Of a DNA stretch of 13,335 nt, positions 2,695 to 12,834 are shown piece after piece. Source of the stretch: a virus. Location of the stretch: UHGV virus genome UHGV-0874476; one strand, written 5' to 3'. The notes under the pieces were generated by a model. The model was not told where the DNA came from and made no database searches. It was given only the letters and a program-made list of their open reading frames with translations. Made by a program: the position numbers and the translations under genes. Each line of letters begins with the position of its first letter. Position 1 is the stretch's first letter.

Positions 2695-4407
2695 CTAATA
2701 AGGGCTTCTTACAATTCGAGATTCTTTTCGTCCAAGTGTATCTTGTACACATTCAGCTAACATACTAAGCGAATCTATTCCGTCATCATGTAGCACTTTT
2801 GCCTTTGTTGTATAAGTACAAACATTCCCCATGAATAATCCGTAATCAGATTTTGGTGTATAAAGACTCGGATCTAAAAACAGACAATGTTTCTTAATCC
2901 AGTCTGCATTAACCAATATTTTTGTTTCCTTATTTGCCGTTGTATATTTCGTTTCAATGCTTGTCCGGCACTTTCCTTTAACCATCTTTTCAATGTTATC
3001 TGCGATTCGTCCTCCGGCTTGGTTCGACTCAAATCTTACTTTATGCGGATTATGCTCAATGATTATGTCTGCTGTTTTCCTGTCCAAAGTGTCGTAATCC
3101 GTGTTATCGTCAAATACTACTGCTGGAATATAGAAATCTTCGCCAAACTGATAAGCAATGGGTAATGACTCAAAGTCTGTTCCCTTATCTTTGGTATCAC
3201 ACACGCCCCATATAGCATCTGGTTCTCTATCCGGAAAAATAGTAAATTGCATTTGTTTCTCTGGTACTTGATCTTTTGAAAAGAAAAATCTTCTCAGCTC
3301 AGATGCAGGGAGAAGCAATCCTTCTCTTTCGATCGGTTGCTGCTGATATAAACAGTTGAAAGAAATATCATCCATGGACTCTTTAGCATCCATAAAATAT
3401 TTCTTAGAAAACCCATTTACAGTAAACATGAAGTTACTTTCTCCGTTTTCATCTAAAGCCGGAATTGCTATGAATTTAGCTTTTGGATTCCCTTCGTAAA
3501 GTTGTTGTAGCTTACCTATTGGATCATGTACCGACCACCTAGTCGCTATATAAATTTCTTTACACCCCTCTAATCGTCTGGAACGTAAATCATTGACAAC
3601 CTTTGTCCAAAGGGTTTCTAATCGGTTTTTGTTCAATGCCTCTTCGATACCAGATACAAGGTCATCGGCTGTAAGAAATCTATTACATCGGGTAGCACCT
3701 GTAAGGGAACCGTCTATAGAGCGGAATGTCCATGTCTTAAATCGTCCATTTCTTTCAAGATTTACAGTTGTTTCTTTCGCATTGGTATTGGTAAGCTGTA
3801 CTGTCGGGAAAATCTCATGCCATGTATATTCCACCGGATCGTTAATGATTTCAAGCACACCATCATAAAGGGAACGTGTCAAAATGCTACTATGTGCTGA
3901 TGAAAGGTTGAAATCGTTCGGAAACCATCCGCCCACAAGCGAAAGAAAGAAATCTTCAAGTGTGGATTTTCCACATCCGGGCGGAACGCTCAGCCCAAAT
4001 ATATCCAATTCATCATCCATTAAATCTTGCAGGCTCTGTATAATTTGATGTTTTACGAACACTTCCCGTCTTGGTTCATAAAATCTTTCTTTTGGAAGTC
4101 GATTCTTCTCTAAATAAAGTAGCCCGCTGTCTACCTGATAGTTTTGGGCTTCCAATAGTAAATACTTCCAGTACAAATCATCAAATTCTCCGCTGCCGGT
4201 CTGAGCCGCCATATAAGCAGCCATCTCATGTGCATACTTGCTGATTTTCATGGCGTAGTCCCGGACTTCCTTATTTTCAGAGAAGTCAAAATCTTCTCTC
4301 ATATTCAGAAGCAAATCCAGGCAATCCCTCTGGTTAACTTTGTTCTTCAATCCGTCATTTATAATTTGTTGGAATAGTCCTTTGTACCATTCCATAGTTC
4401 CTTCCAT
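2695..4407 (-). CDS. terL: phage terminase large subunit
   Basis: 570-aa ORF; Walker A-like PPGCGKST; C-terminal nuclease-like segment ending LHDDGIDSLSMLAE typical of terminase RNase H-like domains; AGGAGG SD upstream of ATG 4407. Confidence 0.88.
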   Translation of the reverse strand: MEGTMEWYKGLFQQIINDGLKNKVNQRDCLDLLLNMREDFDFSENKEVRDYAMKISKYAHEMAAYMAAQTGSGEFDDLYWKYLLLEAQNYQVDSGLLYLEKNRLPKERFYEPRREVFVKHQIIQSLQDLMDDELDIFGLSVPPGCGKSTLEDFFLSLVGGWFPNDFNLSSAHSSILTRSLYDGVLEIINDPVEYTWHEIFPTVQLTNTNAKETTVNLERNGRFKTWTFRSIDGSLTGATRCNRFLTADDLVSGIEEALNKNRLETLWTKVVNDLRSRRLEGCKEIYIATRWSVHDPIGKLQQLYEGNPKAKFIAIPALDENGESNFMFTVNGFSKKYFMDAKESMDDISFNCLYQQQPIEREGLLLPASELRRFFFSKDQVPEKQMQFTIFPDREPDAIWGVCDTKDKGTDFESLPIAYQFGEDFYIPAVVFDDNTDYDTLDRKTADIIIEHNPHKVRFESNQAGGRIADNIEKMVKGKCRTSIETKYTTANKETKILVNADWIKKHCLFLDPSLYTPKSDYGLFMGNVCTYTTKAKVLHDDGIDSLSMLAECVQDTLGRKESRIVRSPY

Positions 4408-7079: not shown

Positions 7080-7372
7080 TACTGTCCCACCCCAAAATGT
7101 TTCCGCAGCATTGCCAATTCATCGACTGCTTTCAGAAATGCTGTCCGCATATCGGTATACCGAATACAATCCTGCTGGTGCTGGTCTTGAAGGTCTTTGC
7201 AAATTCTTTCCAACTCTGCAATTCTGTACTTTTCTTCTTTTTCCACTTTCTTAATTTCAACAGATTCATAAACATCTTCTAGTTTTGATCTAAGAACTGC
7301 GTTTTCGTCAATAAGGTTTCTGATTTGTTCAATCATTTCCTGCTTTGTCATTTCTCTTACACAATCGCACAT
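7079..7372 (-). CDS. hypothetical coiled-coil protein (97 aa)
   Basis: ATG 7372 preceded by GAGG at 9 nt; heptad-like charged/hydrophobic pattern; first gene after the tRNA island. Confidence 0.6.
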   Translation of the reverse strand: MCDCVREMTKQEMIEQIRNLIDENAVLRSKLEDVYESVEIKKVEKEEKYRIAELERICKDLQDQHQQDCIRYTDMRTAFLKAVDELAMLRKHFGVGQ

Positions 7373-7400
7373 ATTTTTTACCTCACAAAATTATTTGAAA

Positions 7401-7426
7401 TGCGCGGGTGTGGATTTGCACCACAC
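7401..7426 (-). other. tRNA 3'-half-like remnant (T-arm-like hairpin GUGUGG-UGCAAAU-CCACAC plus CCCGCGCA tail); no matching 5' acceptor strand found
   Basis: plus-strand gtgtggatttgcaccacac; no complementary acceptor within 100 nt upstream on minus strand. Confidence 0.3.
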
Positions 7427-7557
7427 ATGATTTTCATTCCTACAAGTGTCCTCCGAATTATACATTCCCGACCACTATAAAATCTTATGTTTAAGCGTTT
7501 ACCTGTTCCGCCACCGCACATCACGCATTGATTACCGGCTCAATACGCAAAGCCTAA

Positions 7558-7671
7558 TTGCGACAGGTGGATTTGAACCACCGCTTATACCAACGCCAGA
7601 CCTTCCCAGATTTCAATGGTAGCTAGTCATATACTTTCTGTTGGGTGTGAGGATTTGAACCTCTGTCGCAA
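7558..7671 (-). other. composite tRNA-like structured element: 9-bp terminal inverted repeat enclosing two T-arm-like hairpins with identical UUCAAAU loops
   Basis: minus strand UUGCGACAG...CUGUCGCAA (perfect 9-bp complement); hairpins GAGG-UUCAAAU-CCUC and GGUGG-UUCAAAU-CCACC; neither hairpin has a canonical tRNA body around it. Confidence 0.35.
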
Positions 7672-7722
7672 ACCACGAAAGCTTTCTTCACAACAACAAC
7701 CGGATAAAATCATTGCTGTGCA

Positions 7723-7799
7723 TTGCCCTGAGTGGATTCGAACCACCGACAGCACGCCAGTTCATGTGTACGCTGCTCTACCAACTGAGCTACAGGGCA
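7723..7799 (-). tRNA. tRNA-like gene with canonical acceptor, D-arm and T-arm but non-canonical anticodon arm; identity undetermined, possibly pseudo-tRNA
   Basis: minus strand UGCCCUG-UA-GCUC-AGUUGGUA-GAGC ... GGUGG-UUCGAAU-CCACU-CAGGGCA-A; the 26 nt between D-arm and T-arm cannot form a 5-bp stem with 7-nt loop. Confidence 0.45.
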
Positions 7800-7912
7800 A
7801 ACCTTTTGATTTCGTAAACCGCCTATAATCCTCGGAAATCGTCAGAACTCCATGACGTTCCTTACCTCCAAACTAGGTTTTTAAAGCGCTTTATGGCTTT
7901 TACTTCCGCTTT

Positions 7913-7970
7913 GACATATGGATTGCTCGTCAGCAAATTACGCTCCGGATACCAGAGATCACCATATGTC
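7913..7970 (-). other. 58-nt three-way-junction structured element immediately 3' of tRNA-Thr
   Basis: minus strand GACAUAUGG...CCAUAUGUC (9-bp closing stem) enclosing hairpins CUCUGG-UAU-CCGGAG (one G-U) and UUGCU-GACG-AGCAA. Confidence 0.35.
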
Positions 7971-7972
7971 AG

Positions 7973-8044
7973 AGCCAGAAACCGGACTCGAACCGACAAT
8001 ATCAGCATTACAAGTACTGCGTTCTACCATTGAACTATTCTGGC
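7973..8044 (-). tRNA. tRNA-Thr (anticodon UGU)
   Basis: hand-folded cloverleaf: acceptor GCCAGAA/UUCUGGC, U8 A9, D-stem GUUC/GAAC, anticodon stem CAGUA/UGCUG, loop CUUGUAA, T-arm GUCGG-UUCGAGU-CCGGU, 72 nt. Confidence 0.88.
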
Positions 8045-8296
8045 TACTTAATAAACACCAGTAAACGCTATGCGAAAACCGGATTCCTTTTCTGAACCTG
8101 TCAGATAGGTAAAATATTCCCTTATAAAACCACTTGTCCAACTTATTTACCATACAGGTGTGGCACTAATAATTTACTTCCAGGAATCTTCCAGAATTAC
8201 CGACTACTGCTAATCACGGTCTATGGTCTTATCTCTCTGGAGAAGTTTTTTGCAAGGTTCTTCAGCAGGTATAAGTTGCCTTGCTATATGGAAAAG

Positions 8297-8369
8297 TACA
8301 GGGAGTAGGAGTCGAACCCACAATCGCTGGATATAAGCCAGGTGCAACGTACCGCATCACCTTCCCTGC
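8297..8369 (-). tRNA. probable tRNA, anticodon tentatively UAU (Ile, decoding AUA); atypical A8, weak D-stem, G1-U72
   Basis: acceptor GCAGGGA/UCCCUGU, anticodon stem CUGG/CCAG with loop CUUAUAU, T-arm GUGGG-UUCGACU-CCUAC, 73 nt. Confidence 0.5.
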
Positions 8370-8533
8370 AAAACGGCATTTCTGCCGTTAGCAACATGTT
8401 TTTCGTGCTATGCCTAAGCGCTAGGAAATATTTTCTATTTCCAAAACCTCCCGGCACTTGTGACGCACCTTTAATCAGCTCTCCGCTAGGAGGTTCTAGT
8501 ATAAAGGAGGTCTATCAAAAAAATGATAACAAA

Positions 8534-8605
8534 CGGGGATTGTAGGATTCGAACCTACGTATGCAAGAGTCAAAATCTTGTGTGTTTCCTCTTCACCAAA
8601 TCCCT
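8534..8605 (-). tRNA. tRNA-Gln (anticodon UUG)
   Basis: hand-folded cloverleaf: acceptor AGGGAUU/AAUCCCC (A1-C72 mismatch), 3-bp D-stem, anticodon stem CAAGA/UCUUG, loop UUUUGAC, T-arm GUAGG-UUCGAAU-CCUAC, discriminator G, 72 nt. Confidence 0.88.
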
Positions 8606-9098
8606 ATACTACGTTGCGATAAAAAGTACGATTCATAATATTTATAATTGTTGTTTTTGAAACCCCATAAACTTCCGCGATTCTCCTAGTTGATGTTTTC
8701 CCTTTTTGTTCTCTTATAAAACGAACATCTTTTTCCGTAAGTTTTCTGTTATTATATAATTCATTTTTTTTGCTTTCTTCAATCAAATGATATTTTGTAT
8801 TTTCCTTTGGTGTTACCCACTCTAAATTATCAACATAAGGATTTTTCTTATTTTCGTCTTTATGATGCACTATTTTCTTATTGTCATGATTCGGAATAAA
8901 CGTTTCAGCAACCGCCTTGTGAACTCTAATTCCTTTCACTGCTCCTCTTTTTCCAAGCGGTATATACACCATTAAGTAACCAGCCTTATTAACATTAAAT
9001 TTGTATATACGATTTGTCTTTAAATTTTTAATATTTCCATTTGTATCAATAACAAAATCCGCATATTCAATTCCCCCATATACCATAGTTTTAAACAT
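8604..9098 (-). CDS. HNH homing endonuclease-like protein (N-terminal NUMOD4-like segment, HNH_3-like core, C-terminal helix-turn-helix)
   Basis: motifs GIEYADFVIDTNGNIKNL and HHKDENKKNPYVDNLEWVTPKENTKYH; ATG 9098 preceded by AAAGGAG; stop codon overlaps first nucleotides of tRNA-Gln; ORF-track start 9173 is TTG without RBS. Confidence 0.75.
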   Translation of the reverse strand: MFKTMVYGGIEYADFVIDTNGNIKNLKTNRIYKFNVNKAGYLMVYIPLGKRGAVKGIRVHKAVAETFIPNHDNKKIVHHKDENKKNPYVDNLEWVTPKENTKYHLIEESKKNELYNNRKLTEKDVRFIREQKGKTSTRRIAEVYGVSKTTIINIMNRTFYRNVV

Positions 9099-9213
9099 AA
9101 TGCCACATTCTCCTTTACTGCGGATATTCCCAGTTTTATTCTCCGAATACCCCATTGTGCTTTTTCTTTGCAACCATTCTCTTCTGAACTCATAGCCTGA
9201 CAGGGCAAAATTT

Positions 9214-12185: not shown

Positions 12186-12539
12186 TCACTTCTTTTCAAA
12201 ATAAAATTTTACCGGAGCATCATTTTCTTTTACAATTCCGAAGTTCTTCGCAAGACGATAAATGAAATTCTTTTCTAATCTTTCATGCAAAGTCTGTAAT
12301 CTTTCCCGAAATTTTTCAATCGTATAAGTCGATTTGTAAAAATTACACATTCTACAAGCCGGATTGTAGTTTTCAATATCATTCGCTCCATTATGCCAGT
12401 AAAGAGGATTGATGTGATCTACCTGCATGTCCTTGTATTCCAGTTCACAACCGCAATAGGCACAATGTCCAGAATATTTGTTATATACCTGAATCCGTAT
12501 TGGTTTTGGAATTGGTTTTCGTTTTTTCTGTTCTTGCAT
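12186..12539 (-). CDS. HNH endonuclease (117 aa)
   Basis: classic HNH motif CAYCG...DHINP...N...CRMCN; ATG 12539 preceded by GGAG at 6 nt, 1 nt after upstream stop. Confidence 0.8.
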   Translation of the reverse strand: MQEQKKRKPIPKPIRIQVYNKYSGHCAYCGCELEYKDMQVDHINPLYWHNGANDIENYNPACRMCNFYKSTYTIEKFRERLQTLHERLEKNFIYRLAKNFGIVKENDAPVKFYFEKK

Positions 12540-12540
12540 A

Positions 12541-12834
12541 TTAATCTCCACTGATGTAAATGAAATCCGCATTTCTAAAACTCACATTCGGAAACATGTT
12601 TACAGCCACATTACACAAGGCAATAAACAAATCGCCTCTGTCATCTACAGTCTTAACTTTTCCATTTGTACCCTTGCAAACTATATTCTGCCCAGAAGCG
12701 TCTTTGGTTATAAAATAATCTGATTCATCGTTTAAGATAAAATCCATCGAAAGTGTTTTGCAAAGAATCCGAAATGCTTCTTCTGGTTCTATGTCAATAT
12801 TAAATGTTTGTTTTGATGTAACGTCAACTAACAT
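12541..12834 (-). CDS. hypothetical protein (97 aa); shares an identical 18-aa / 55-nt segment with the upstream gene
   Basis: ATG 12834 preceded by GAGGAA at 5 nt; C-terminal RGDLFIALCNVAVNMFPN encoded by repeat copy 12585-12639. Confidence 0.55.
   Translation of the reverse strand: MLVDVTSKQTFNIDIEPEEAFRILCKTLSMDFILNDESDYFITKDASGQNIVCKGTNGKVKTVDDRGDLFIALCNVAVNMFPNVSFRNADFIYISGD
12585..12639. repeat. direct repeat copy 1 (55 bp, identical to 13281-13335)
   Basis: cattcggaaacatgtttacagccacattacacaaggcaataaacaaatcgcctct; flanks diverge on the left. Confidence 0.9.

What the first reader, a model, noticed from the sequence alone, without database searches (positions are those of the whole stretch)
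7558..7671. 114-nt element with a perfect 9-bp terminal inverted repeat enclosing two T-arm-like hairpins
Minus-strand UUGCGACAG at the 5' end pairs perfectly with CUGUCGCAA at the 3' end. Just inside each end sits a hairpin with the same UUCAAAU loop. Neither hairpin can be placed in a standard tRNA: the acceptor partner of the 3' hairpin lies 100 nt upstream, beyond the other hairpin. Candidates are a tRNA split by an insertion, a rearranged tRNA pair, or a distinct tRNA-like ncRNA.
Basis: seen in the sequence. Interest (0 to 1): 0.55.

Follow-up and report, generated by a model that had tools for sequence, protein, structure and literature searches.

The report
Anticodon-less tRNA-like gene with insertion
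The 114-nt element is a tRNA-derived gene in a gut phage's tRNA array that keeps only the acceptor stem and T-arm of a tRNA, has no anticodon arm and carries a 61-nt extra segment, so it cannot decode and is most likely a tRNA mimic or a decaying relative of one.

Summary
The perfect 9-nt terminal complement and two hairpins with UUCAAAU loops lie at 7558-7671 (-).

**What it is.** The 3' hairpin plus the terminal stem has exact tRNA geometry: a 7-bp acceptor stacked on a 5-bp T-stem, with discriminator A. There is no D-stem and no anticodon arm. ARAGORN and Rfam do not call it.

**Key comparison.** A related phage (L115) carries the same gene in the same flanks as a 52-nt form. The window's version has 61 extra nucleotides, and the 5' "T-arm-like" hairpin lies inside them.

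**Conservation.** Stem, T-arm, an 18-nt leader and a D-loop remnant (GUUGGUA) are 68/70 identical between the two forms, against 63% in the surroundings. All substitutions among long forms fall in the interior.

**Wider class.** Related phages carry many conserved 51-54-nt mini tRNA-like genes (acceptor + D-arm + T-arm, no anticodon arm) with abundant compensatory changes. A model built from them finds the 52-nt form.

**Verdict.** A non-decoding tRNA-like gene with an insertion. Processing by RNase P, RNase Z and CCA addition, and action as a tRNA mimic, are inferred. Decay of a former gene is the main rival. The terminal stem never varies, so it offers no direct covariation test.

The parts
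7558..7671 (-). Whole element as reported: the 114-nt long form of the tRNA-like gene.
   Evidence: Sequence. It is 100% identical in 9 other assemblies and 95.6-96.5% identical in 9 more.
7664..7670 (-). Acceptor 5' strand UGCGACA (element positions 2-8). U at 7671 is position -1.
   Evidence: It pairs with 7559-7565 in all folds. It is invariant in all copies, including the L115 short form.
7602..7662 (-). 61-nt segment present in the long form and absent from the L115 short form. The boundary is ambiguous by 1 nt (7603-7663). It contains the 5' hairpin and a third T-loop-like hairpin, CCA-UUGAAAUC-UGG.
   Evidence: Alignment of the window with L115. Four of the five substitutions among long forms fall in this segment; the fifth (T74A, window 7598) lies just 3' of it. 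No donor sequence was found.
7649..7663 (-). 5' hairpin GAGG-UUCAAAU-CCUC. It is T-arm-like but belongs to the indel.
   Evidence: Absent from L115.
7588..7594 (-). GUUGGUA, a remnant of the canonical D-loop motif (A)GUUGGUA that carries G18/G19. No D-stem flanks it.
   Evidence: It aligns with the GUUGG D-loop of the mini tRNA-like model. Invariant in all copies.
7566..7582 (-). T-arm GGUGG-UUCAAAU-CCACC.
   Evidence: Invariant except for one T-loop change (U to C at the U54-equivalent position) in L106.
7558..7565 (-). Acceptor 3' strand UGUCGCA (7559-7565) plus discriminator A (7558). No encoded CCA.
   Evidence: It sits flush against the T-stem, as in tRNA.
7672..7689 (-). Conserved 5' leader GAAGAAAGCUUUCGUGGU. 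It contains the palindrome GAAAGCUUUC.
   Evidence: 18/18 identical in L093, L104 and L115, although the sequence further upstream is only 70-90% identical.
7522..7557 (-). Conserved 3' trailer UUAGGCUUUGCGUAUUGAGCC... The same trailer follows a different tRNA-like gene, or none, in phages that lack the element.
   Evidence: 31-35 of 36 identical. L101 and L109 share the sequence only from the element's last base onward.
7723..7799 (-). Neighbour: the 'odd tRNA'. It has normal acceptor, D and T arms and an aberrant anticodon region. It is a paralogous shell sharing AUAAGCGGUGGUUC with some relatives.
7400..7520 (-). Neighbour: 'element 2', a second over-long tRNA-like gene with a type-II D-arm. 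Its interior ranges from 121 to 248 nt total length in different lineages.

Best explanation
**What it is.** The element is a tRNA-derived gene that does not decode. It sits at the downstream end of the phage's tRNA array.

**The conserved core.** The core is the 'top half' of a tRNA:
- a 7-bp acceptor stem (UGCGACA/UGUCGCA) with discriminator A;
- stacked on it, a 5-bp T-stem with a canonical UUCAAAU T-loop;
- a D-loop remnant, GUUGGUA.

There is no D-stem and no anticodon arm.

**Short and long forms.** One relative carries this core alone as a 52-nt gene. That form has the size and layout of the 51-54-nt mini tRNA-like genes (acceptor + D-arm + T-arm) that are conserved across this phage family. 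The window's copy has an extra 61 nt directly after the 5' acceptor strand. The 5' 'T-arm-like' hairpin is part of that extra segment.

**Likely mechanism (inferred, not shown).**
- The RNA is co-transcribed with the tRNAs.
- RNase P cuts at U(-1)/U1 and RNase Z cuts after A73.
- The RNA receives CCA. All of these enzymes need only the acceptor/T-arm half of a tRNA.
- It then acts through that half as a tRNA mimic, not as an adaptor. My preferred reading is a decoy or competitor for factors that recognise the acceptor end or elbow of tRNA. An alternative is a nuclease-resistant handle for the inserted segment.

**Shown:** anatomy, the indel, conservation of the shell, and the existence and covariation of the mini class. 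**Inferred:** transcription, processing and function.
For: **Geometry.**
- The T-stem sits flush with a perfect acceptor partner.
- The chance expectation is 0.003 per hairpin, with 0 of 300 shuffles.

**Not a decoding tRNA.**
- ARAGORN makes no call.
- The best Rfam match is tRNA-Sec at 16 bits against a gathering score of 47.

**Short form.**
- L115 2211-2262 has the same stem, GUUGGUAUAAGC and T-arm in the same leader and trailer, without the 61 nt.
- It folds with z = -3.05.

**Constraint on the shell.**
- Window against L115: the shell is 68/70 identical and the surrounding array 157/250 (Fisher p = 4e-10).
- All 5 substitutions among the long forms lie at positions 29-74 (p = 0.036).
- C29U and C46U keep predicted pairs as G.U.

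**The mini class is real.**
- M1/M2 minis: 99.1% of cells paired, 11 of 16 pairs changed on both sides, 0 of 500 shuffles, slid controls 27-53%.
- Group B minis: 98.3% paired, with three pair types at pair 1-72.

**Membership.** A covariance model built only from M1/M2 ranks the L115 short form first in 64 kb on both strands (18.7 bits, E about 0.005, full length).

**Neighbours show the same pattern.** The two adjacent genes also have a conserved shell and a variable interior, with compensatory changes in element 2's acceptor and T-stem.

**Transcription context.**
- Same strand as the tRNAs.
- No minus-strand ORF of 50 aa or more between 7373 and 7958.
- No convincing promoter or terminator inside the array.

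**Precedent.** tRNA-like modules of bacterial and phage Y RNAs are cleaved by RNase P and receive CCA (PMC4201824).
Against: - The terminal stem and T-arm are invariant in every copy found, so the element itself shows no covariation.
- High identity of a roughly 115-nt island could also come from recent gene conversion in a mosaic region.
- The element is dispensable. The closest IMG/VR relatives (L001, L002) and several lineages with the same downstream ORF lack it.
- Variants look like decay: the L086 deletion that fuses it to the neighbouring tRNA-like gene, and a U54-equivalent U to C change in L106.
- Unlike the minis it has no D-stem.
- The 61-nt segment breaks the mini layout, and its own fold is unresolved.
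- There are no expression data, and no function has been shown for any member of the class.
Confidence: 0.6

Rival explanations
1. The element is a decaying pseudogene or recombination scar. A former tRNA or mini tRNA-like gene lost its D-stem and anticodon arm and picked up a 61-nt fragment through the T-arm-mediated illegitimate recombination that is common in this array. It has no function now, and the conserved island only reflects recent shared ancestry or gene conversion.
For: - T-arm-mediated rearrangement is directly visible at this locus: the L086 148-nt deletion with its junction in GGUGGUUC, and the junctions in L109 and L120.
- Presence or absence varies among close relatives.
- There is no D-stem.
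- L106 carries a T-loop mutation.
- The 5' hairpin followed by ACACCCA looks like the 3' end of another tRNA, and the T-loops are spaced as in tandem tRNA genes.
- No compensatory change is seen in the element itself.
Against: - The shell and leader are 68/70 identical where neighbouring sequence is 63% identical (p = 4e-10).
- The 7-bp acceptor is still perfect.
- Substitutions avoid the shell.
- The long form has persisted through the divergence of at least three sublineages.
- The short form matches a class that is under clear structural selection.
Confidence: 0.3
2. The element is a real decoding tRNA interrupted by an intron or insertion. The insertion is removed from the transcript to give a functional adaptor.
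For: - The acceptor and T-arm are intact.
- The interior has a loop AUUGAAA / UUGAAAU that could be read as an anticodon loop.
- A weak tRNA-Sec match spans the whole element.
Against: - Removing the 61 nt gives the L115 form, which still has no anticodon arm or D-stem and is only 52 nt long.
- Bacterial tRNA introns are group I introns of 200 nt or more, located in the anticodon loop (general knowledge). This segment sits between position 8/9 and the D region.
- Rfam finds no ribozyme or intron.
- The candidate anticodon stems do not pair.
Confidence: 0.03
3. The region holds two ordinary or rearranged tandem tRNAs whose boundaries were misjudged.
For: T-loop to T-loop spacing is 81 nt, as in tandem tRNA genes. 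The only metagenome matches to the two-hairpin pattern are tRNA-Pro + tRNA-Met pairs.
Against: - ARAGORN and Rfam find no tRNA in 7558-7671 at any threshold tested.
- The 5' hairpin has no acceptor partner upstream.
- The 3' hairpin's partner lies beyond the 5' hairpin.
- The 5' hairpin is absent from L115 while the rest is intact.
Confidence: 0.03
4. The element acts at the DNA level: a miniature transposable element with 9-bp terminal inverted repeats, or a protein-binding palindrome.
For: - A perfect 9-bp terminal inverted repeat.
- An imperfect direct repeat in the flanks, GCTTTCGT upstream and GCTTTGCGT downstream.
- Presence/absence polymorphism.
Against: - One copy per genome, and none elsewhere in about 1.6 Mb of relatives.
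- The short form keeps both 'terminal repeats' with only 34 nt between them, so the indel is internal and is not the repeat-bounded unit.
- Loci without the element share only the 3' flank, so there is no clean empty site.
- There is no true target-site duplication.
- The repeat plus T-arm has exact tRNA geometry, and C to U changes keep G.U pairs on this strand only.
Confidence: 0.03

Closest known systems
Canonical tRNA (Rfam RF00005)
   Same: - A 7-bp acceptor stem flush with a 5-bp T-stem.
- A UUCAAAU T-loop, discriminator A and a GUUGG D-loop motif.
- Located in a tRNA array on the tRNA strand.
- No encoded CCA, like its neighbours.
   Different: - No anticodon arm and no D-stem.
- 113 nt long, with 61 extra nt after position 8/9.
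- Not called by ARAGORN or Rfam.
- U1-A72 instead of the usual G1-C72.
Mini tRNA-like genes of the related gut phages. These are the families I call M1-M4 here. I found them in neither Rfam nor the literature searched.
   Same: - Acceptor + GUUGG loop + short linker + T-arm, with no anticodon arm.
- 51-54 nt long, beginning with U1-A72 in most families, and interspersed in tRNA arrays.
- The L115 short form is the top hit of a model built from them.
   Different: - The element's D-stem is not formed.
- The window copy carries a 61-nt insertion, so it is found only locally at the T-arm (8.3 bits).
- Its acceptor sequence is unrelated to theirs.
tRNA-like module of bacterial and phage Y RNAs (YrlA), which partner Ro60/Rsr (PMC4201824, PMC12135203)
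   Same: - A non-decoding tRNA mimic with a T-arm and D-loop features.
- The Y RNA module is a substrate for RNase P and CCA addition.
- A Ro60-fold protein is encoded inside the tRNA array of 28 of 80 related phages, next to a tRNA-like RNA.
   Different: - In YrlA the RNA ends form the Ro-binding stem and the 'acceptor' is an internal stem-loop. Here the ends form the acceptor.
- No GNCGAA motif and no Rfam hit.
- No Ro60-like gene in the window or in L001/L002.
tmRNA tRNA-like domain
   Same: An acceptor stem plus T-arm, with no anticodon arm and a large insertion between the two acceptor strands.
   Different: - No G3.U70, no tag reading frame and no pseudoknots.
- 114 nt rather than 260 nt or more.
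- ARAGORN finds no tmRNA.
Stable RNAs of the phage T4 tRNA cluster (species 1 and 2, rnaC/rnaD). This rests on my own knowledge; I did not check it here.
   Same: Non-tRNA stable RNAs of about 120-140 nt, encoded within a phage tRNA cluster and matured by the tRNA-processing machinery. Their function is still unknown.
   Different: No sequence relationship was tested. They come from a different phage group.
t-elements of plant mitochondria (PMC1920247) and pseudo-tRNA 'tRNA-Other' of Bacillus cereus (PMC3399842)
   Same: tRNA-like structures that do not decode. They serve as RNase P/Z processing signals or as regulators.
   Different: These are analogies of mechanism only. There is no homology, and no evidence here for mRNA-end formation or regulation.

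Membership tests
tRNA (RF00005) | A 7-bp acceptor stem with a discriminator, stacked on a 5-bp T-stem with a 7-nt UUCRANY loop. | tested here: met
   UGCGACA/UGUCGCA + A, and GGUGG-UUCAAAU-CCACC flush against it.
tRNA (RF00005) | An anticodon arm: 5-bp stem and 7-nt loop with U33. | tested here: not met
   ARAGORN makes no call. There is no RF00005 match even at E <= 10; the best is tRNA-Sec at 16 bits against a gathering score of 47. Candidate stems do not pair. The short form has only 18 nt between the acceptor and the T-arm.
tRNA (RF00005) | A D-arm: 3-4-bp stem with a loop carrying G18 G19. | tested here: not met
   GUUGGUA is present, but the flanking bases do not pair.
Mini tRNA-like genes of the related phages (M1/M2 model R1) | Acceptor + D-arm + 4-8-nt linker + T-arm, 51-54 nt in total, with no anticodon arm. 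| tested here: inconclusive
   The L115 short form scores 18.7 bits, E about 0.005, full length and top hit, but its D-stem is not formed. The window's long form gives only a local T-arm match at 8.3 bits, E about 5. The E-values are rough.
Mini tRNA-like genes of the related phages | Helices maintained by compensatory substitutions. | tested here: inconclusive
   The class shows this. The element's own helices are invariant in all copies, so there is nothing to count.
Y RNA / YrlA | Encoded next to a Ro60/Rsr gene. | tested here: not met
   No DUF2828/TROVE-like ORF in the 13.3-kb window or in L001/L002. The rest of the genome was not available.
Y RNA / YrlA | 5' and 3' ends form the Ro-binding stem (GNCGAA motif), with the tRNA-like module internal. 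| tested here: not met
   The ends form the acceptor stem. The sequence has no GNCGAA, and Rfam gives no Y-RNA hit.
tmRNA | G3.U70, a tag reading frame, pseudoknots, and a length of 260 nt or more. | tested here: not met
   C3-G70, 114 nt, and no ARAGORN tmRNA call.
MITE / terminal-inverted-repeat element | Terminal inverted repeats with target-site duplication, several copies, and clean empty sites. | tested here: not met
   The repeats are present, but there is no target-site duplication and only a single copy. The indel is internal to the repeats.
Substrate of RNase P / RNase Z / CCA-adding enzyme | A 12-bp acceptor/T-stem stack with a T-loop and a single-stranded 3' trailer. | not testable with these tools
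   The sequence requirements are met. Cleavage and CCA addition need experiments or RNA-seq.

The most novel reading that the evidence does not exclude
Gut phages of this family encode a previously undescribed class of anticodon-less tRNA mimics. These are 51-54-nt 'top-half' mini tRNAs plus longer versions in which the same shell carries a variable interior. They would be processed and CCA-tailed like tRNAs. Their role would be to act as decoys for host factors or defences that target the tRNA acceptor end or elbow, or as partner RNAs of the phage Ro60-like protein. On this reading, the 114-nt element is a cargo-bearing member whose second and third T-loop hairpins add extra elbow mimics.
Probability: 0.3. 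Interest if true: 0.8.

Novelty: new variant of a known kind. Interest (0 to 1): 0.58.

Why it matters
Phage tRNA genes are usually read as codon-usage helpers or as replacements for tRNAs destroyed by host defences. This array holds three adjacent genes that keep the tRNA shell but cannot decode, and its relatives hold many more. That shell (acceptor stem plus T-arm) is all that RNase P, RNase Z, CCA-adding enzyme, EF-Tu and acceptor-end toxins recognise.

If these RNAs are expressed, they form a compact natural family of tRNA mimics that tRNA finders and Rfam do not detect. They would give a direct handle on what the acceptor/elbow half of a tRNA can do on its own during infection. The link to a Ro60-fold protein in the same arrays makes that testable.

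If the element is only a decaying copy, it still documents how phage tRNA arrays turn over through recombination at T-arms.

Tried and rejected
**Searches that found nothing useful.**
- Exact-substring scans of IMG/VR with four different pieces of the element, and one gapped scan, gave no hits.
- The metagenome scan that fixed only the two hairpins returned two ordinary tRNA-Pro/tRNA-Met tandems.
- The genome scan with the D-remnant/T-stem anchor returned three chance matches inside coding sequence.
- GenBank phages have no homolog of the 350-nt block, only generic tRNA-piece matches. The mini/137-nt region of L014 also has no match there.
- blastn of the element against the 80 terminase-related loci found nothing.
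- A search for a donor of the 61-nt segment found only T-loop matches.

**Analyses that were uninformative.**
- RNAalifold on the four long variants found no pair changed on both sides, so the interior fold is unresolved.
- The promoter/terminator scan was not above shuffle expectation.
- Pfam and PHROGs on the window's ORFs found no tRNA-processing or repair enzyme.
- Sequence and profile searches of the DUF2828 protein against PDB did not reach Ro60. Only the structure comparison did. The first AlphaFold model, from a shallow alignment, was unusable.

**Readings rejected.**
- tmRNA, Y RNA (YrlA), MITE, intron-split tRNA and a misjudged tRNA pair. Reasons are given in the membership tests.
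- Acceptor differences between the element and the odd tRNA as covariation. The two acceptors may come from different ancestors.
Full report
**1. The observation**

On the minus strand, 7671-7663 (UUGCGACAG) is the perfect complement of 7566-7558 (CUGUCGCAA). Two hairpins with the identical loop UUCAAAU lie just inside the ends: GAGG/CCUC at 7663-7649 and GGUGG/CCACC at 7582-7566.

ViennaRNA pairs positions 2-8 with 107-113 and forms both hairpins. The whole-element energy is only modestly better than shuffles (-31.9 kcal/mol, z = -1.69).

The nine complementary bases are not all in one helix.
- G9 closes the 5' hairpin.
- C106 closes the T-stem.
- The helix proper is 7 bp. A114 is left as a discriminator and U1 as position -1.
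- So the geometry is a 7-bp acceptor stacked directly on a 5-bp T-stem, exactly as in tRNA.

A 9-bp inverted repeat by itself is unremarkable in 13 kb: 12 observed against 9 +/- 3.4 in shuffles. What is far from chance is its position flush against a T-arm.
- The window has five T-arm-like hairpins, all on the minus strand within 7400-8606: tRNA-Gln, tRNA-Ile, the odd tRNA, this element and element 2. Shuffles give 0.19.
- A perfect partner for the bases following a T-stem is expected 0.003 times per hairpin, and appeared in 0 of 300 shuffles.

**2. Context**

The window is part of an uncultured human-gut phage.
- It encodes a portal (540-2033), a large terminase (2695-4407) and HNH endonucleases, all on the minus strand.
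- The nearest cultured terminase relative is Clostridium phage Maintenon, at 44% identity.

Positions 7372-8606 form a tRNA array on the minus strand: tRNA-Gln(UUG), tRNA-Ile(UAU), tRNA-Thr(UGU) and an aberrant tRNA at 7723-7799.
- No minus-strand ORF of 50 aa or more lies between 7373 and 7958.
- No promoter or terminator signal exceeds the shuffle expectation.

Neither ARAGORN nor Rfam calls anything at 7558-7671. The only trace is a tRNA-Sec alignment at 16 bits, against a gathering score of 47 (E = 6.4).

**3. Relatives**

Eighty terminase-related IMG/VR loci were fetched.
- None contains the element.
- The two closest, L001 and L002 (about 85% nucleotide identity), have a syntenic array but lack about 350 nt corresponding to 7372-7722.
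- Exact-pattern scans of IMG/VR were negative.

Contigs encoding the identical downstream 97-aa ORF gave nine copies of the element at 100% identity. They also gave one variant, L086, in which 148 nt are deleted. Its junction lies inside GGUGGUUC, fusing the aberrant tRNA to the element's T-arm.

Homologs of that ORF led to further lineages.
- L093-096 and L104-108 carry the element at 95.6-96.5% identity.
- L097-100, L101-103, L109-114, L116 and L120-122 lack it.

Among the long copies, the five fixed differences (C29U, A42G, C46U, A69C, U74A) all lie at positions 29-74. One contig has U to C at the U54-equivalent of the T-loop.

The terminal stem and both hairpin stems never vary.

**4. The key comparison**

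L115 (GCA_029782595.1) has a 52-nt form between the same leader (GAAGAAAGCUUUCGUGGU) and the same trailer (UUUGGAUUUGCGUAUUGAGCC):

UUGCGACAG-UCAGGAGUUGGUAUAAGC-GGUGGUUCAAAUCCACC-UGUCGCAA

Relative to it, the window has 61 extra nucleotides (7602-7662, boundary ambiguous by one G) directly after the 5' acceptor strand.
- The 5' 'T-arm-like' hairpin, the ACACCCA that follows it, and a third T-loop-like hairpin (CCA-UUGAAAUC-UGG) all lie inside this segment.
- I could not find a donor for it.
- I cannot say whether it is an insertion or whether L115 has a deletion. Because the 52-nt form matches a widespread class (section 6), insertion is the simpler reading.

The short form folds markedly better than shuffles (z = -3.05, 0 of 200).

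**5. Conservation**

Window against L115, identical positions per segment:

| Segment | Identical |
|---|---|
| Leader | 18/18 |
| 5' acceptor strand | 8/8 |
| Positions 71-114 | 42/44 |
| 3' trailer | 31/36 |
| Aberrant tRNA | 43/67 |
| Spacer | 23/33 |
| Element 2 | 71/122 |
| Stretch to the ATG | 20/28 |

- Shell against surroundings: 68/70 against 157/250, Fisher p = 4e-10.
- Against the trailer alone, p = 0.04.
- The chance that all five long-form substitutions fall in the interior is 0.036.
- C29U and C46U turn predicted G-C pairs into G.U on this strand only.

This argues for constraint on the shell. A recently converted 115-nt patch in a mosaic region is not excluded.

**6. A wider class**

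A scan for a T-arm flush with a 7-bp acceptor at non-tRNA distances found many conserved genes in the related phages.

*Mini forms of 51-54 nt* have acceptor, D-arm, a 4-8-nt linker and T-arm, with no anticodon arm.
- M1: UCCAGUG-UU-UCUC-GUUGG-GAGA-UUUA-UGCCG-UUCAAGU-CGGCA-CACUGGA-C.
- M2, M3 and M4 follow the same plan.
- For M1/M2 plus the L115 form, 99.1% of cells pair, 11 of 16 pairs change on both sides, 0 of 500 shuffles reach this, and slid controls give 27-53%.
- For M3/M4/M0, 98.3% pair, four pairs change on both sides, and pair 1-72 shows C-G, U-A and A-U.

*Over-long forms* of 91-248 nt keep the shell around a large interior.

Rfam does not recognise the minis.

A covariance model built from M1/M2 only ranks the L115 short form first in 64 kb on both strands.
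- The score is 18.7 bits, E about 0.005, over the full length.
- Acceptor, GUUGG loop and T-arm align. The D-stem is not formed.
- The window's long form is matched only at its T-arm (8.3 bits), because of the 61-nt segment.

Nearly all of these non-canonical genes begin with U1-A72.

**7. The neighbours behave the same way**

*The aberrant tRNA (7723-7799).*
- It has normal acceptor, D and T arms. Its anticodon region is 17-26 nt long and differs between lineages.
- Its D and T arms are those of a 115-120-nt tRNA-like RNA in other family members.

*Element 2 (7400-7520).*
- It has a type-II D-arm and occurs at 121, 174, 177, 178 and 248 nt in different lineages.
- Acceptor pair 6 changes G-C to U-A in L104.
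- Three T-stem pairs change compensatorily in L115.
- The stem closing the interior covaries: GAUUUU/AAAAUC, GAACAAG/CUUGUUC, GAUUAUAUA/UAUAUAAUC.

So three adjacent genes share one theme: a maintained tRNA shell and a free interior.

**8. A Ro60-like protein in the arrays of relatives**

In 28 of the 80 loci, the array contains a 483-aa ORF with DUF2828, DUF7788 and vWA domains. PHROGs files it as phrog_850, 'RNA-binding protein'.

Sequence profiles do not reach any solved Ro60. The structure comparison does.
- A high-confidence AlphaFold model (pLDDT 92.7, pTM 0.91) has Ro60 proteins as its eight best PDB matches.
- These are Xenopus 1YVR/1YVP/2I91, the two cryo-EM Ro60 complexes 9NFA/9NEP, Deinococcus Rsr 2NVO and Thermus phage 9KOP.
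- The matches cover the full length, with E from 5e-7 to 5e-5 and TM 0.50-0.60.

The 115-120-nt tRNA-like RNA always lies 160-260 nt upstream of this gene. This recalls rsr/Y-RNA loci, whose Y RNAs carry tRNA-like modules that are cleaved by RNase P and CCA-tailed (PMC4201824; phage example PMC12135203).

The window, L001 and L002 have no such gene in the sequence available. The homologous RNA there, the aberrant tRNA, has a collapsed interior. The link to the 114-nt element is therefore indirect.

**9. Interpretation**

*Shown:*
- the element is tRNA-derived;
- its conserved unit is the acceptor/T-arm half plus a D-loop remnant;
- it lacks an anticodon arm in both forms;
- the 5' hairpin is part of a 61-nt indel;
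- the shell is more conserved than its surroundings;
- structurally selected genes of the same layout abound in the family.

*Inferred from established enzymology:* RNase P, RNase Z and CCA-adding enzyme accept acceptor/T-arm minihelices. The RNA should therefore be excised from the array transcript and CCA-tailed.

*Speculative:* what it does.
- I favour a tRNA mimic acting through its acceptor end or elbow, for instance as a decoy for tRNA-directed host factors. The shell alone is conserved, the genes are numerous, and they turn over quickly.
- A role as a protective handle for the interior, or as a processing mark ahead of the downstream ORF, is also possible.

*The main rival is decay (0.3).*
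- The locus visibly recombines at T-arms.
- The element is dispensable.
- It has lost the D-stem.
- No compensatory change is available for it.

**10. Novelty**

Non-decoding tRNA mimics are known: Y-RNA modules, tmRNA, the T4 stable RNAs and tRNA-Other. This is therefore a new variant of a known kind.

I did not find the anticodon-less 51-54-nt class, or its cargo-bearing versions, in Rfam or in the literature searched.

Noticed in passing
L014 2617-4068 (+); also L003-L013, L019, L021, L029-L031, L033, L037, L042, L047, L056, L067, L072, L074, L075, L078, L079: A 483-aa DUF2828 + DUF7788 + vWA protein is encoded inside the tRNA array of 28 of 80 related phages. Its AlphaFold model (pLDDT 92.7) has Ro60/Rsr as its eight best PDB matches, over the full length. 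The family has 6,573 cluster representatives and sources name it only 'DUF2828'. It is not present in the window.
   Followed up: yes
L014 2338-2455, L003 3489-3606, L019 4700-4814, L037 2878-2995 and others: A 115-120-nt tRNA-like RNA has normal acceptor, D and T arms and a structured interior of about 60 nt. The interior has covarying stems UUGUAA/UUACAA against UUGAAU/AUUCAA, and a conserved CAGCAAU. It always lies 160-260 nt upstream of the Ro60-like gene, so it is a candidate Y-like RNA. Rfam scores it as a tRNA with an insertion (48.8 bits).
   Followed up: partly
window 7723-7799 (-): The 'odd tRNA'. ARAGORN gives it a 4-base anticodon 'gaac', and Rfam scores it 48.5 bits with 18 nt where 13 are expected. 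Its D and T arms are those of the 115-120-nt RNA above, but its interior is 17-26 nt and exists in three unrelated versions among relatives. It is probably not a decoding tRNA.
   Followed up: partly
window 7400-7520 (-): 'Element 2' is a second over-long tRNA-like gene: acceptor UGUGCGG/CCGCGCA, type-II D-arm UGGCGGAACAGGUAAACGC, and a T-arm with a UGCAAAU loop. Its total length is 121, 174, 177, 178 or 248 nt in different lineages. The acceptor, the T-stem and the stem closing the interior all covary. It ends 27 nt before the ATG of the next ORF.
   Followed up: partly
L014 4528-4578, L015 6204-6255, L015 4824-4876, L025 4934-4986, L014 1428-1481 and many others: Conserved 51-54-nt mini tRNA-like genes have acceptor, D-arm and T-arm but no anticodon arm. 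There are at least four families across the related phages, with abundant compensatory substitutions. Rfam does not have them.
   Followed up: yes
L014 4342-4478, L028 1015-1139, L001 2151-2249, L021 1679-1769: Further over-long tRNA-like families of 137, 125, 99 and 91 nt. The 137-nt one appears to have a hairpin inserted in the D-loop of a type-II D-arm.
   Followed up: no
L086 1230-1246: A 148-nt deletion variant joins the 5' part of the odd tRNA to the element's T-arm and 3' strand, with the junction in GGUGGUUC. This is direct evidence of T-arm-mediated recombination in this array.
   Followed up: partly
window about 8452-8500 (-): A conserved motif lies after tRNA-Gln: CCUCCUAGCGGAGAGCUGAUUAAAGGUGCGUCACAAGUGCCGGGAGG, closed by CCUCC/GGAGG. 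It is also present in L001, L002, L082, L097 and L101.
   Followed up: no
window about 8371-8403 (-): AAAAACAUGUUGCUAACGGCAGAAAUGCCGUUU contains a GAAA-tetraloop hairpin and lies immediately upstream of tRNA-Ile. The same motif precedes tRNA-Pro, or a 99-nt tRNA-like gene, in relatives.
   Followed up: no
window 8045-8296 (-): A block of about 250 nt between tRNA-Ile and tRNA-Thr has no minus-strand ORF and is 85-86% conserved in L001 and L002. It may be another non-coding RNA.
   Followed up: no
window 8604-9173 (-) and 12186-12572 (-): Two HNH endonuclease genes. The first abuts tRNA-Gln at the upstream end of the array.
   Followed up: no
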